This document shows positions 1,081 to 24,839 of a stretch of DNA of 64,000 bases, in pieces. Position 1 is the first letter of the stretch. Every line of letters starts with the position of its first letter. The position numbers were made by a program, and so were the translations under genes. Origin of the DNA: a virus (Duplodnaviria; Heunggongvirae; Uroviricota; Caudoviricetes); the IMG/VR virus record IMGVR_UViG_2541047850_000005, positions 1 through 64,000 of that record; one strand, given 5' to 3'. The notes below the pieces were generated by a model that was not told the DNA's origin, ran no database searches, and was given only the letters and a program-made list of their open reading frames with translations.

Positions 1081-1943
1081 AGTATGTCTTTATTGAAAAA
1101 CATCAGGCTGAGTTCAGCATCAAAGCAATGTGCCGCGTGCTCCGGGTGGCCCGCAGCGGCTGGTATACGTGGTGTCAGCGGCGGACAAGGATAAGCACGC
1201 GTCAGCAGTTCCGCCAACACTGCGACAGCGTTGTCCTCGCGGCTTTTACCCGGTCAAAACAGCGTTACGGTGCCCCACGCCTGACGGATGAACTGCGTGC
1301 TCAGGGTTACCCCTTTAACGTAAAAACCGTGGCGGCAAGCCTGCGCCGTCAGGGACTGAGGGCAAAGGCCTCCCGGAAGTTCAGCCCGGTCAGCTACCGC
1401 GCACACGGCCTGCCTGTGTCAGAAAATCTGTTGGAGCAGGATTTTTACGCCAGTGGCCCGAACCAGAAGTGGGCAGGAGACATCACGTACTTACATACAG
1501 ATGAAGGCTGGCTGTATCTGGCAGTGGTCATTGACCTGTGGTCACGTGCCGTTATTGGCTGGTCAATGTCGCCACGCATGACGGCGCAACTGGCCTGCGA
1601 TGCCCTACAGATGGCGCTGTGGCGGCGTAAGAGGCCCCGGAACGTTATCGTTCACACTGACCGTGGAGGCCAGTACTGTTCAGCAGATTATCAGGCGCAA
1701 CTGAAGCGGCATAATCTGCGTGGAAGTATGAGCGCAAAAGGTTGCTGCTACGATAATGCCTGCGTGGAAAGCTTCTTTCATTCGCTGAAAGTGGAATGTA
1801 TCCATGGAGAACACTTTATCAGCCGGGAAATAATGCGGGCAACGGTGTTTAATTATATCGAATGTGATTACAATCGGTGGCGGCGGCACAGTTGGTGTGG
1901 CGGCCTCAGTCCGGAACAATTTGAAAACCAGAACCTCGCTTAG
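1077..1943 (+). CDS. insF: IS3 transposase OrfB (DDE catalytic subunit)
   Basis: 288-aa ORF overlapping orfA stop (ATGA); DDE integrase-core motifs (..WAGDITYL.., ..HTDRGGQY.., ..DNACVESFF..). Confidence 0.9.
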
Positions 1944-2258
1944 ACCTGTGTCCATATTACGTGGGTAGGATCAATTTTCACCTAACTGAATAGCTCGCAT
2001 ATTCGTGAACCGACCAGCATCAGGATCTAGCAGTGTAGAGCGAATATCCTTTTCAACTAGATCTATGGCTCGCTCTTCATCAGAATCACAACCTGTTAAT
2101 AGTAAAGCCGCTATTAACAATGCTAATGAGTATTTTTTATTCACCCCATTCTTCATGAAACTTATTCCATAATCAATTTTTGGTGGAATGTACGGTTAGT
2201 CTGTCTACGCATCATAGAGATGTATATAATGACCAAAAAAGACTTAAAAAGGTAGACT

Positions 2259-23309: not shown

Positions 23310-23448
23310 GTGTTTTTCCTAATGCTTAAACAAGTTGTTTTCTTATTGGCTTTATTGTGATGTGGCATAAAAGGGGAGCAAGCTAAACGTAAAGGTGCAA
23401 ACTCTCTATTTCGGTCAACGAAACACAATGGCCATTTGACCCTTGTCA

Positions 23449-23607
23449 TTAACACGTTGCTTTACGGACTAGCGGATAAGCGAAGTAGATCGCCAGACCA
23501 ATGAGGACGCCATCAGAAATGACAGACATCATCTTTCCCGTAAAATCCACCAACACCGCCATCACCAGAAGAGCAATGACGGTCACAAGCCGGAATCTCT
23601 CAAGCAT
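23449..23607 (-). CDS. small hydrophobic protein (~52 aa, two predicted TM segments), not in ORF track
   Basis: ATG overlaps the TAA of the upstream TerB-like gene (TAATG); translation MLERFRLVTVIALLVMAVLVDFTGKMMSVISDGVLIGLAIYFAYPLVRKATC read by hand. Confidence 0.35.
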   Translation of the reverse strand: MLERFRLVTVIALLVMAVLVDFTGKMMSVISDGVLIGLAIYFAYPLVRKATC

Positions 23608-24032
23608 TAGAGATAAGCATCCAGTGACAACTGAAGCGCCTGGGCGATCTTTTTCAGCGCCTGCTCTTCTGGTTCATCAATGCCGTCTTGGTCGGCAATA
23701 TCAAGGCACAGACAAAGTACATCTACTGCATCATCAGTCCCGGCCACATCCGCCAGCTCACGTAAAGCCTGGGCATTAGCACGGCGCGGTGAGGCTTCGT
23801 ATTGAGCGCGGATATTGGCGCTCATCTGGGCAATCTCACCAGCAAAAGGAGAAAATGCAGGCAGAGCTGCAATTGTTTTCTCAAGAATGGAAATTTCTTT
23901 TGCATCGCATGTACCGTTGGCATAGGAGATCATGTACCCACCCCACACGGTGGCTTCAACCGCATCACGGTTCTCCATTTTTTTGACTTCGATAACTGCT
24001 TTACGAGTTTTCTTTTTGAAGAAACCTAACAT
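23607..24032 (-). CDS. TerB-like domain protein (141 aa)
   Basis: all-alpha composition with ..LCLCLDIADQDGIDEPEEQALKKIA.. resembling the TerB (tellurite-resistance B-like) motif. Confidence 0.45.
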   Translation of the reverse strand: MLGFFKKKTRKAVIEVKKMENRDAVEATVWGGYMISYANGTCDAKEISILEKTIAALPAFSPFAGEIAQMSANIRAQYEASPRRANAQALRELADVAGTDDAVDVLCLCLDIADQDGIDEPEEQALKKIAQALQLSLDAYL

Positions 24033-24125
24033 GTGTTTTCCTTTTGTTATTTGTCAAAACAAGTTGTTTTCTAGTTAAATAAATTGCTTACGCAAAGGCG
24101 GTCAATGCATATGCACTAACAACCG

Positions 24126-24314
24126 TCAGAAATAACCAAGTACCGAACCGACTGGAAAAATAAAAATCCCAACTACACGAGCCAAGGTCATGCCAGCCTG
24201 AAACTGGAGATCGCCAGAGCAAACAAGTTTTATAATGTTCGATACCCAACCGGCGGCCATGAGGGCAAGAATTGCCAGCCAAATTTTTCCAAAGTGATTT
24301 GAAAACCAGTTCAT
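24126..24314 (-). CDS. small membrane protein (62 aa)
   Basis: two hydrophobic segments; ATG overlaps stop of upstream 83-aa ORF (ATGA). Confidence 0.45.
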   Translation of the reverse strand: MNWFSNHFGKIWLAILALMAAGWVSNIIKLVCSGDLQFQAGMTLARVVGIFIFPVGSVLGYF

Positions 24315-24529
24315 ACAACCGCCTTAGTCACAGCATGATCCTGAGTAACTGGATGAACTTGAGGTATCGCATCCACCGTCATCCCATCCAGAGTGACAGG
24401 ACGCTCTGCTGGAGTGGTGGTAATTGTCGTCGACGGAGGTGTGGTGATGGATGAATCCGGCATCAAAAGGCTCTGGCCGGCTGGAACGGCTACCGTCGCC
24501 AGTGAAACTATAATGAGAACGTAGGCCAT
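24311..24529 (-). CDS. small secreted Pro/Thr-rich protein (start MAYVLIIVSLATVAVPA)
   Basis: signal-peptide-like N-terminus, AAGAGG RBS; alternative frame to 24324..24839. Confidence 0.35.
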   Translation of the reverse strand: MAYVLIIVSLATVAVPAGQSLLMPDSSITTPPSTTITTTPAERPVTLDGMTVDAIPQVHPVTQDHAVTKAVV

Positions 24530-24839
24530 TGGTTTCAGCCTCTTTCTTTGAAAATTTTCCATTCGAACTGTCCTTGTTGTTTTTCTCCTTCACTAAAGGC
24601 CGTGCATTTTTCGCTTGGTGTGAAGAACCAGAGGTAACAATCGCCCCCACGTTCGCAACAACTGACGCTTGCTTATCTAAACGTTCATTCAGCAACCGAA
24701 CGGTAGTCTCAAGTTCATCAAGACGTGACAGAACACGACCGCTAAATAATTCGGCCAAAATTTGACGTAGTGAACGAGGACGTTTAGTTGCAGAAGTGAA
24801 ATAGGTTTGACGTGCCATGTGGACTCCATCCAGTGTCAT
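24324..24839 (-). CDS. hypothetical protein (171 aa; C-terminal half low-complexity and possibly spurious)
   Basis: longest ORF in track; overlaps the 83-aa ORF in another frame, so only one of the two is likely real over 24324..24562. Confidence 0.3.
   Translation of the reverse strand: MTLDGVHMARQTYFTSATKRPRSLRQILAELFSGRVLSRLDELETTVRLLNERLDKQASVVANVGAIVTSGSSHQAKNARPLVKEKNNKDSSNGKFSKKEAETNGLRSHYSFTGDGSRSSRPEPFDAGFIHHHTSVDDNYHHSSRASCHSGWDDGGCDTSSSSSYSGSCCD

What the first reader, a model, noticed from the sequence alone, without database searches (positions are those of the whole stretch)
23449..24032. TerB-like protein translationally coupled to an unannotated ~52-aa hydrophobic peptide
The stop codon of the TerB-like gene overlaps (TAATG) the start of a short ORF, absent from the ORF track because it is under 60 aa, that encodes two predicted transmembrane helices. 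TerB domains are associated with membrane stress and conflict systems; a coupled small membrane peptide could be a toxin or holin-like effector with the TerB protein as sensor or regulator.
Basis: partly seen in the sequence, partly recalled or inferred. Interest (0 to 1): 0.45.

Follow-up and report, generated by a model that had tools for sequence, protein, structure and literature searches.

The report
Phage P1-type tciA–tciB gene pair
The flagged genes are a copy of the known, already annotated phage P1 tciA–tciB cassette, a TerB-family protein plus a coupled 52-residue membrane peptide; it is common in phages, its function has never been tested, and nothing found here supports a toxin or holin role.

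Summary
On the minus strand a 141-aa TerB-family gene (23607..24032) ends in TAATG, which starts a 52-aa hydrophobic ORF (23449..23607).

The ORF is real. It matches Pfam DUF3927 (E 2e-12) and PHROG 1470 "TciB-like" (E 8e-21), is under purifying selection, and was intact and start/stop-coupled in 78 of 80 related viral contigs.

It is not new or unannotated. The window is an SSU5-like phage-plasmid, about 100% identical to Escherichia phage PhiR41_1. GenBank and RefSeq records annotate both genes, and phage Cyrano calls them "P1 TciA-like" and "P1 TciB-like". The large protein is 80% identical to P1 TciA and the peptide 37% identical to P1 TciB. P1 has the same 1-nt overlap.

The cassette occurs in P1-like, D6, SSU5-like, lambdoid, N4-like and jumbo phages, and in about 10% of complete E. 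coli genomes. P1 tciABC is non-essential for plating.

My best reading is a bicistronic accessory unit producing a membrane-associated TerB–peptide complex, analogous to TerB–TerC, that acts in membrane stress or competitor exclusion. That function is inferred. The toxin/holin idea has no positive support. Interest is low.

The parts
23607..24032 (-). tciA-like gene: 141-aa TerB-family protein with a conserved basic N-terminal tail (MLGFFKKKTRK...) and a six-helix acidic domain
   Evidence: ORF. Pfam TerB E 1e-5, above the gathering cut-off. PHROG 632 'tellurite resistance' E 2.8e-61. 80% identical to P1 TciA. The family profile hits solved TerB 2JXU at E 3.2e-14. AF2 model pLDDT 87.8, helices 22-36, 44-56, 58-80, 82-96, 102-113 and 120-132, with the N-terminal ~20 residues at low confidence. 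dN/dS 0.03-0.14.
23449..23607 (-). tciB-like gene: 52-aa DUF3927 hydrophobic peptide, with family-wide near-invariant R6, D21, F22, S28, D32 and P45
   Evidence: ORF. Pfam DUF3927 E 1.9e-12. PHROG 1470 'TciB-like' E 7.8e-21. 37% identical to P1 TciB. dN/dS about 0.2-0.3. Hydropathy. Conservation profile over about 116 family representatives. AF2 model is a single helix 2-51.
23605..23609 (-). TAATG stop/start overlap coupling tciA-like and tciB-like translation; only a weak GGA Shine-Dalgarno-like element lies 12 nt upstream
   Evidence: Sequence. The same 1-nt overlap occurs in P1 (tciA end 70658 = tciB start 70658). Among 78 IMG/VR loci with intact TciB, 55 have a 1-nt overlap and 23 a 4-nt overlap. 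In 13 phage lineages the start lies within -7..+4 nt of the stop.
24038..24043 (-). Shine-Dalgarno-like AAGGAA upstream of the tciA-like ATG (spacing about 5-7 nt)
   Evidence: Minus-strand sequence ...ACAAAAGGAAAACACATG.
24055..24071 (-). Palindromic motif AGAAAACAACTTGTTTTG centred about 31 nt upstream of the tciA-like start; a putative operator or regulatory element shared by about 13 sites in the window
   Evidence: 19 strand-matches (about 13-14 distinct sites) against 0.36 expected from shuffles. Nine sites lie 3-39 nt upstream of minus-strand ORF starts. The motif is also conserved upstream of the next gene in Klebsiella phage pJN2-26. Its function was not tested.
23425..23446 (-). Terminator-like hairpin immediately after the tciB-like stop, closing the bicistronic unit; the stem is weakened in this window
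   Evidence: In the window the stem is CAAGGGTC-AAAT-GGCCATTG (about -11.5 kcal/mol for the 46-nt region). Cyrano has a perfect 9-bp stem (-20.8 kcal/mol, z -4.8). Klebsiella pJN2-26 keeps the stem with a compensatory A:T to G:C change. The simple consensus terminator scan did not report it.

Best explanation
This is the SSU5-like phage-plasmid copy of the phage P1 tciA–tciB accessory ('moron') cassette.

Shown: one short transcription unit carries two genes. It has its own upstream palindromic motif and ribosome-binding site, and a terminator-like hairpin directly after the second gene. The stop of the TerB-family gene overlaps the start of the 52-aa DUF3927 gene, and both genes are under purifying selection.

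Inferred: ribosomes finishing tciA re-initiate at the overlapping ATG, which has only a weak Shine-Dalgarno, so the peptide is made in a fixed ratio to TciA. The peptide inserts into the inner membrane with its basic ends in the cytoplasm and its conserved Asp21-Ser28-Asp32 face in or near the outer leaflet. TciA is a soluble acidic TerB domain with a conserved Phe/Lys-rich N-terminal tail. It docks at the cytoplasmic face, giving a minimal analogue of the TerB–TerC membrane complex of tellurite-resistance (Ter) systems.

The cassette is dispensable for lytic growth. It most likely changes membrane or ion-stress physiology of the infected or lysogenised cell, for example resistance to pore-forming colicins or superinfecting phage, or protection from premature membrane collapse.

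Confidence in the identity as a tciA/tciB homologue and real coupled pair is about 0.95. Confidence in a membrane complex is about 0.5. Confidence in the specific protective or exclusion role is about 0.3.
For: Identity:
- 100% DNA identity to Escherichia phage PhiR41_1 and 97% to Cyrano, which labels the genes 'P1 TciA-like' and 'P1 TciB-like'.
- 80% and 37% protein identity to P1 TciA and TciB.
- PHROG 632 and 1470, Pfam TerB and DUF3927.
- TerB homology through the family profile to 2JXU, E 3e-14.

Unit:
- The same gene order and overlapping stop/start occur in P1, D6, lambdoid phages (Fostie, JLK-2012, Evi), N4-like SP-076, jumbo phage ChrisDB, Pantoea LIET2 and Pseudomonas ZY21.
- 78 of 80 IMG/VR loci have an intact coupled TciB.
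- dN/dS is below 0.35 for both genes.
- A terminator-like hairpin with a compensatory change follows the pair, and a shared upstream motif precedes it.

Membrane association:
- The peptide's hydropathy.
- K/R residues at both ends, and invariant D21/S28/D32 with helical periodicity.
- TciA's N-terminal 20 residues carry net +5 against -11 for the rest, are conserved, and are modelled at low confidence.

Precedent:
- TerB is membrane-associated and is an interaction partner of the integral membrane protein TerC (PMC11003894; PMC12054061).
- TerB domains in the defence systems Bunzi and Shango were proposed to act in membrane surveillance (10.1101/2022.05.11.491447).
- Stand-alone phage TerB was proposed to serve competition with superinfecting phages (PMC7824862).

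Accessory nature:
- P1 tciA/B/C were scored non-essential by CRISPRi (PMC10695390).
Against: - No experiment shows that TciA binds TciB, that either is at the membrane, or that the cassette gives any phenotype. The 'tellurite/colicin resistance/cell-division inhibition' label is by homology only.
- TciA and TciB similarity patterns are discordant. P1 versus D6 is 30% for TciA but 61% for TciB. The window versus P1 is 80% for TciA but 38% for TciB. This argues against a tightly co-evolved interface.
- No genuine TerB–DUF3927 fusion exists. The few long hits are frameshift or chimeric assemblies.
- AF2 models the peptide as one long helix rather than a hairpin, and each hydrophobic stretch has only about 14 strictly apolar residues. 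The topology is therefore uncertain.
- Some phage TerB genes lack the peptide (PMBT3, Vibrio BUCT194) or are followed by an unrelated coupled membrane ORF (Pseudomonas AF).
- The window's TciA has Asn at position 39 of the first ADG motif, where 31 of 34 relatives have Asp.
Confidence: 0.5

Rival explanations
1. The 52-aa peptide is a membrane-damaging toxin or holin-like effector (depolarisation, lysis timing or abortive killing), and the TerB protein senses a signal and restrains or releases it.
For: The peptide is small and strongly hydrophobic with charged ends, like class II holins and many membrane toxins. In several lambdoid and related phages the pair sits just upstream of the lysis cassette, downstream of antiterminator Q. 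Tight translational coupling is typical of two-component toxin/regulator pairs. The conserved polar Asp-Ser-Asp face could line a pore.
Against: The peptide matches no holin or toxin family, and neither protein matches any PADLOC defence model. Phages carrying the pair near lysis genes have their own annotated holins and endolysins. In this window, in P1 and in N4-like or jumbo phages the pair has no annotated lysis gene among its neighbours. P1 tciA/B/C knock-down has no plating defect. The gene order, large protein first and peptide dependent on it, together with free recombination between TciA and TciB types, does not fit a specific antidote–toxin pair. The pair is stably carried in about 10% of complete E. 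coli genomes.
Confidence: 0.12
2. Counter-defence decoy. The phage TerB homologue and its membrane partner mimic host TerB and occupy or mis-signal host membrane-surveillance machinery (Ter systems, or TerB-domain defence systems such as Bunzi and Shango), blunting host immunity rather than protecting the cell.
For: The protein is a full-length homologue of the ter-operon TerB, including a similar N-terminal tail region. Ter systems and terC reduce phage growth. TerB domains occur in validated defence systems. The pair is found in strictly virulent phages (N4-like SP-076, jumbo Erwinia phages), where lysogenic conversion makes no sense.
Against: No data support it. Classical P1 hosts such as E. 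coli K-12 have no ter operon (my own knowledge, not tested here), yet the cassette is kept. The conserved dedicated membrane partner suggests an autonomous unit rather than a decoy for a host complex. No hit to known anti-defence families was sought or found.
Confidence: 0.15
3. No functional partnership. The small ORF is an unexpressed or unrelated hitch-hiker next to a stand-alone TerB gene, and the overlap is incidental.
For: Overlapping TAATG junctions arise by chance; a spurious third TAATG ORF follows the peptide. Published descriptions of phage TerB usually speak of a 'single' or 'standalone' terB gene.
Against: The pair is conserved from enterobacterial phage-plasmids to Pseudomonas and Erwinia phages at about 25-40% identity, always immediately downstream with the start within -7..+4 nt of the stop. 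78 of 80 IMG/VR loci are intact. Purifying selection acts on the peptide. Pfam and PHROG families exist for it.
Confidence: 0.03

Closest known systems
Phage P1 tciA–tciB(–tciC) operon (GenBank AF234172; my own knowledge attributes the annotation to Łobocka et al. 2004, a paper that could not be read here); PHROG 632 + PHROG 1470
   Same: TciA is 80% identical, and the peptide is 37% identical and in the same Pfam family (DUF3927). Gene order and the 1-nt stop/start overlap are identical. Both are accessory genes of a phage-plasmid.
   Different: There is no tciC equivalent; a terminator-like hairpin follows tciB here. The genomic setting differs. In P1 the genes lie in the C1-controlled ban operon among tRNA genes. 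Here they have their own upstream palindromic motif and no tRNAs. The window protein has Asn39 in the first ADG motif.
TerB–TerC core of the terZABCDE(F) tellurite-resistance, phage-inhibition and colicin-resistance system
   Same: It is a TerB-family protein of the same length class, alignable over nearly its full length to the solved Klebsiella TerB. It is encoded directly upstream of a membrane protein gene. TerB is reported as an interaction partner of membrane protein TerC.
   Different: The membrane partner is a 52-aa DUF3927 peptide with no detectable similarity to the multi-pass TerC. No TerZ/A/D/E/F or associated biosynthetic genes are nearby. No tellurite, colicin or phage phenotype has been shown for the phage pair.
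TerB-domain anti-phage systems Bunzi and Shango
   Same: They have a TerB domain linked to the membrane and a proposed membrane-surveillance role.
   Different: PADLOC models of known defence systems gave no match. The cassette has no ATPase, helicase or other effector genes, and it is carried by phages, including virulent ones.
Small phage membrane proteins: class II holins/pinholins and superinfection-exclusion proteins such as T4 Imm or HK97 gp15 (named from my own knowledge, not tested here)
   Same: It is a small, hydrophobic, phage-encoded protein, often at 'moron' positions such as between Q and the lysis genes in lambdoid phages.
   Different: There is no sequence-family relationship. 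It is always paired with a cytoplasmic TerB protein, is not next to an endolysin in most genomes, and is non-essential in P1.

Membership tests
TerB family (Pfam PF05099) | Profile match above the curated threshold | tested here: met
   Pfam TerB 26.2 bits against a gathering score of 24.4, E 1e-5, residues 33-136. The margin is small, but it is reinforced by a profile of 9 phage homologues hitting solved TerB 2JXU at E 3.2e-14, profile positions 13-137 against chain residues 19-145.
TerB family (Pfam PF05099) | All-alpha TerB-like fold | tested here: inconclusive
   The AF2 model (pLDDT 87.8) is a six-helix bundle. The best PDB match by Foldseek is 2H5N (PG1108), probability 1.0, TM 0.53-0.60, but E only 0.027. 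The same chain is a weak sequence-profile hit (E 0.22). 2JXU did not appear in the Foldseek list. The afdb50 library was unavailable.
TerB family (Pfam PF05099) | Two repeated (A)DG...E acidic motifs | tested here: inconclusive
   The second motif is intact (IADQDGIDEPEE; D111, D114, G117 and E122 conserved). The first reads YANGTCDAKE, with Asn39 where 31 of 34 relatives have Asp. That these motifs define the family and bind metal is my own recollection of the literature, not tested here.
Ter (terZABCDE) tellurite-resistance system | TerB encoded with TerC, TerD-family and other ter genes | tested here: not met
   The neighbours are hypothetical phage proteins and RNase H, with no TerC or TerD hits. 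It is therefore a TerB-family protein but not part of a Ter system.
P1 TciA/TciB cassette (PHROG 632 + PHROG 1470; Pfam DUF3927) | TciA-type TerB protein | tested here: met
   80% identity to P1 TciA over 141 aa. PHROG 632 E 2.8e-61, full length.
P1 TciA/TciB cassette (PHROG 632 + PHROG 1470; Pfam DUF3927) | DUF3927/TciB-type peptide immediately downstream with overlapping stop/start | tested here: met
   Pfam DUF3927 E 1.9e-12. PHROG 1470 E 7.8e-21. 37% identity to P1 TciB. TAATG overlap here and a 1-nt overlap in P1.
P1 TciA/TciB cassette (PHROG 632 + PHROG 1470; Pfam DUF3927) | Third small gene tciC | tested here: not met
   P1 TciC (35 aa, MGFWDFADKHPIV...) has no counterpart here. The ORF after tciB is a basic 54-aa read-through of the terminator and the next gene's upstream region. 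tciC is also absent from most other lineages examined, so it is not a core feature.
Holins | Membership of a known holin family, or position next to an endolysin in a lysis cassette | tested here: not met
   No holin family hit in Pfam or PHROGs. The neighbours here are not lysis genes. Relatives with lysis cassettes have separate annotated holins.
Holins | Required for lysis or plaque formation | not testable with these tools
   The only indirect evidence is that P1 tciA/B/C were scored non-essential in a CRISPRi screen (PMC10695390).
Toxin–antitoxin or abortive-infection pair | Toxicity of one component neutralised by the other | not testable with these tools
   No match in PADLOC. No experimental data were found in the literature searches.
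TerB-domain defence systems (Bunzi, Shango) | Match to system-specific models and presence of partner genes | tested here: not met
   PADLOC gave no hit at E <= 0.01 for either protein or its neighbours.

The most novel reading that the evidence does not exclude
The 'stand-alone' TerB genes noted in many phage genomes are really an autonomous two-part membrane module. A roughly 50-aa DUF3927 peptide oligomerises in the inner membrane, its near-invariant Asp21-Ser28-Asp32 helical face forms a cation- or proton-binding site or pore, and the coupled TerB protein gates or senses it. Phages of many families would use this minimal replacement for TerB–TerC to control the membrane potential or ion state of the infected cell, for superinfection exclusion, colicin resistance or evasion of membrane-triggered abortive infection.
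Probability: 0.2. Interest if true: 0.5.

Novelty: already known. Interest (0 to 1): 0.18.

Why it matters
As a discovery it matters little. The gene pair is annotated in phage P1, has Pfam and PHROG families, and is routinely annotated in E. coli genomes.

Its residual value is that the function is still untested for a cassette that is widespread:
- about 10% of complete E. coli genomes carry it;
- at least 415 IMG/VR contigs carry the closest TciA clade alone;
- it occurs in phages from P1-like phage-plasmids to N4-like and jumbo phages.

The literature often calls phage terB 'single' or 'standalone' and overlooks the coupled membrane peptide. Recognising the two-gene unit and its invariant Asp-Ser-Asp signature gives a compact, easily testable entry point into what TerB domains do at the membrane. 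That question also bears on Ter systems and on the Bunzi and Shango defence systems.

Tried and rejected
- A mixed alignment for the natural fusion P0214 mis-aligned the peptides to the N-terminus, so it was not used. The tool returns no PAE, so interface confidence could not have been judged anyway.
- I looked for Rosetta-stone fusions. P0214 (196 aa, TerB + DUF3927) is a single P1-like contig with a 1-nt insertion just before the stop. P0261, P0296, P0311 and P0327 are frameshifted or chimeric. None counts as evidence.
- The Foldseek afdb50 library was unavailable.
- The search for related loci with the diverse alignments A1 and A4 failed for lack of a conserved stretch. The closer alignment A2 worked but samples only the near clade.
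- PMC523184, my recalled id for the P1 genome paper (Łobocka et al. 2004), is not held. The P1 information comes from the GenBank annotation.
- A single-sequence search against PDB sequences found nothing meaningful.
- No tRNA genes and no Rfam families were found in the window.
- The consensus promoter scan found no convincing sigma-70 promoter for the pair and missed the terminator hairpin.
- The third TAATG-coupled ORF after tciB was considered as a tciC analogue and rejected.

Full report
**What is in the sequence.** Both ORFs of the finding lie on the minus strand. A 141-aa ORF spans 23607..24032 and a 52-aa ORF spans 23449..23607. On the minus strand the junction reads CTC-TAATG-CTT. The TAA stop (23609..23607) and the ATG start (23607..23605) share one base. 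The first gene has a good ribosome-binding site (AAAAGGAAAACAC-ATG). The second has only a GGA 12 nt upstream, so its translation probably depends on re-initiation by ribosomes terminating on the first gene; this is inference. The peptide is MLERFRLVTVIALLVMAVLVDFTGKMMSVISDGVLIGLAIYFAYPLVRKATC. It has two hydrophobic stretches and is the most hydrophobic of 134 small ATG-ORFs in the window.

**Is the small ORF real?** Yes, on four lines of evidence.
- It matches Pfam DUF3927 (E 1.9e-12) and PHROG 1470 'TciB-like inhibition of cell division or resistance to colicin' (E 7.8e-21).
- Pairwise dN/dS between homologues is about 0.2-0.3, against 0.03-0.14 for the TerB gene.
- In 16 phage lineages fetched from GenBank, 13 have a homologous 50-62-aa ORF whose start lies within -7..+4 nt of the TerB stop.
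- Among 80 IMG/VR loci carrying close TciA relatives, 78 have an intact coupled peptide gene: 55 with a 1-nt overlap and 23 with a 4-nt overlap. The other two share one homopolymer frameshift.

A third TAATG-started ORF follows the peptide's stop. It is basic and runs through a hairpin and the next gene's upstream region, which shows what a chance ORF looks like here.

**Where the window comes from and whether the ORF is unannotated.** The region is 100% identical to Escherichia phage PhiR41_1 and 96-98% identical to phages CMS-2020a and Cyrano. All of these are roughly 108-kb SSU5-like phage-plasmids.
- All annotated records call both genes, and Cyrano labels them 'P1 TciA-like protein' and 'P1 TciB-like protein'.
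- In RefSeq, 535 of 5426 complete E. coli genomes have a match. PGAP names the pair 'tellurite resistance TerB family protein | DUF3927 family protein'.

**Identity of the large protein.** The Pfam TerB match is only just above threshold (26.2 against 24.4 bits). PHROG 632 'tellurite resistance' matches at E 2.8e-61. A profile built from nine divergent phage homologues hits the solved Klebsiella TerB (2JXU) at E 3.2e-14 over almost the whole length.
- An AlphaFold2 model (pLDDT 87.8) is a six-helix bundle preceded by about 20 low-confidence residues.
- Its best PDB match by Foldseek is 2H5N, with probability 1.0, TM 0.53-0.60 and E 0.027.
- The N-terminal tail (MLGFFKKKTRKAVIEVKKME, net +5) is strongly conserved, while the rest of the protein is acidic, net -11.
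- The window's copy has Asn39 in the first 'ADG' motif, where 31 of 34 relatives have Asp.
- No other ter genes are nearby. This is a TerB-family protein but not a Ter system.

**Relation to phage P1.** The large protein is 80% identical to P1 TciA and the peptide is 37% identical to P1 TciB. In P1 the genes tciA, tciB and tciC follow each other with 1-nt overlaps. [quoted passage not shown] The window lacks tciC; a terminator-like hairpin follows tciB instead. That hairpin is perfect in Cyrano, carries a compensatory change in Klebsiella phage pJN2-26, and is weakened by two substitutions in the window.

**Distribution.** The cassette occurs in these groups:
- P1-like and D6 phage-plasmids;
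- SSU5-like phage-plasmids of Escherichia and Klebsiella;
- lambdoid phages, between antiterminator Q (often with tRNA genes) and the lysis cassette;
- N4-like Salmonella phages;
- Erwinia jumbo phages, Pantoea LIET2 and Pseudomonas ZY21, where the peptide gene is not annotated.

An exhaustive profile search of 1.84 billion representative proteins finds only 151 DUF3927 clusters at 50% identity, almost all 45-66 aa and stand-alone. A few have C-terminal extensions that look like coiled coils (my reading of the sequences). The rare long hits containing TerB sequence are frameshift or chimeric assemblies, so they give no fusion evidence.

Some phage TerB genes lack the peptide (PMBT3, Vibrio BUCT194). 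Pseudomonas phage AF has a non-homologous coupled single-pass membrane ORF instead.

**Features bearing on mechanism.** Across about 116 family representatives the best-conserved peptide positions are Asp21, Ser28, Asp32, Phe22, Pro45 and Arg6. Conservation through residues 18-36 has alpha-helical periodicity.
- Basic residues sit at both ends (R4, R6; R48, K49). This fits an N-in/C-in hairpin with the acidic centre toward the periplasmic side.
- AlphaFold2 instead models one continuous helix, residues 2-51, pLDDT 89.6. The number of membrane passes is therefore unresolved.
- TciA and TciB similarity patterns are only loosely correlated (Spearman 0.44) and sometimes discordant. P1 versus D6 is 30% for TciA and 61% for TciB. 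The window versus P1 is 80% and 38%. The two genes have recombined between lineages, which argues against a highly specific antidote–toxin interface.

**What is known experimentally.** I found no test of function.
- A genome-wide CRISPRi screen scored P1 tciA, tciB and tciC as non-essential (PMC10695390).
- For bacterial Ter systems, TerB is reported as an interaction partner of the integral membrane protein TerC, and terC contributes to phage resistance (PMC11003894 and PMC12054061).
- TerB domains in the defence systems Bunzi and Shango were suggested to act in membrane surveillance.
- Stand-alone TerB in jumbo phages was proposed to serve competition with superinfecting phages (PMC7824862).
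- Papers on phage PMBT3 and on Klebsiella prophages discuss phage TerB as a single gene.

**Best explanation and rivals.** The pair is a bicistronic accessory unit. It most plausibly makes a membrane-associated complex of a TerB domain with a small DUF3927 membrane peptide, a minimal analogue of TerB–TerC, and alters membrane or ion-stress physiology or excludes competitors. Identity and coupling are shown; the complex and its role are inferred.
There is no family match, and separate holins exist where lysis cassettes are adjacent. No lysis gene is annotated among the neighbours here or in P1, and P1 tciABC is non-essential. No experiment excludes the idea.
- A decoy or counter-defence role against host TerB-based surveillance is an open alternative, favoured by the cassette's presence in strictly virulent phages.
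- Chance adjacency is effectively excluded by conservation.

**Verdict.** The pair is annotated in phage P1, covered by Pfam and PHROG families, and already annotated in identical public sequences. The function remains unknown. The useful residue is the near-universal coupling of 'stand-alone' phage TerB to a DUF3927 peptide and the peptide's invariant Asp-Ser-Asp signature, which make a simple experimental programme possible.

Noticed in passing
window 23742..23773 (minus strand), PAM 23774..23776: A 32-nt spacer in the type I-E CRISPR array of E. coli EC42405 (NZ_CP043414.1, next to cas1e/cas2e) is identical to this stretch of the tciA-like gene. The 3 nt 5' of the protospacer are ATG, which I recall as an interference-proficient I-E PAM. 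It records natural CRISPR targeting of this phage-plasmid group.
   Followed up: partly
window sites 5348, 6111, 7014, 7500, 9048, 9726, 9777, 13700, 18783, 23328, 24055, 34275, 45728, 59403 (each about 15-17 nt): The palindromic motif (A/T)AGAAAACAA-N-TTGTTTT occurs at about 13-14 sites against 0.36 expected. Nine copies are centred 3-39 nt upstream of minus-strand ORF starts, including tciA-like (24032) and the 189-aa gene (23309). It is probably an operator or another regulatory element defining a regulon of this SSU5-like element. The binding factor is unknown.
   Followed up: partly
window 24126..24314 (minus strand): Another small hydrophobic ORF (62 aa, PHROG 6006, two hydrophobic stretches) lies directly upstream of the tciA-like gene, separated from it by the palindromic motif. 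A homologue appears fused to TciA in a mis-called database protein (P0151). Its function is unknown.
   Followed up: no
window 24311..24562 and 24324..24839 (minus strand): Two overlapping ORFs in different frames both match PHROG families strongly: phrog_15659 at E 1e-47 and phrog_10411 at E 8e-77. Public records annotate only the longer one, so one PHROG family probably derives from mis-called genes.
   Followed up: no
window 23916..23918 (codon 39 of the tciA-like gene): The window's TciA, like that of PhiR41_1, has Asn in the first 'ADG' motif of the TerB domain, where 31 of 34 close relatives have Asp. The effect on function is unknown.
   Followed up: partly
loci L004 (P1), L006 (D6), L008 (JLK-2012), L011 (ChrisDB), L012 (ZY21): In several unrelated phages the tciA–tciB cassette sits next to tRNA genes (Asn/Thr in P1, D6 and JLK-2012; several in ChrisDB; Arg in ZY21). 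This suggests the cassette and tRNAs occupy the same accessory hot-spot or travel together. The window itself has no tRNAs.
   Followed up: no
locus L013 (Pseudomonas phage AF) about 1932..2150; locus L014 (Vibrio phage BUCT194) 1..1392: Where the DUF3927 peptide is missing, TerB genes still pair with other membrane proteins. Phage AF has a 73-aa single-pass membrane ORF overlapping the TerB stop (GTGA). BUCT194 has a second TerB gene followed by a 340-aa membrane protein.
   Followed up: no
locus L012 (Pseudomonas phage ZY21), starting 3 nt after the TerB stop at 983: A 62-aa TciB-like ORF (MAWVRDLGSRLRAILILILLFGVVVIDSVSRIISMCADGFLAILIFVLIWPLIKAKSTTAKR) is not annotated in the GenBank record.
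   Followed up: no
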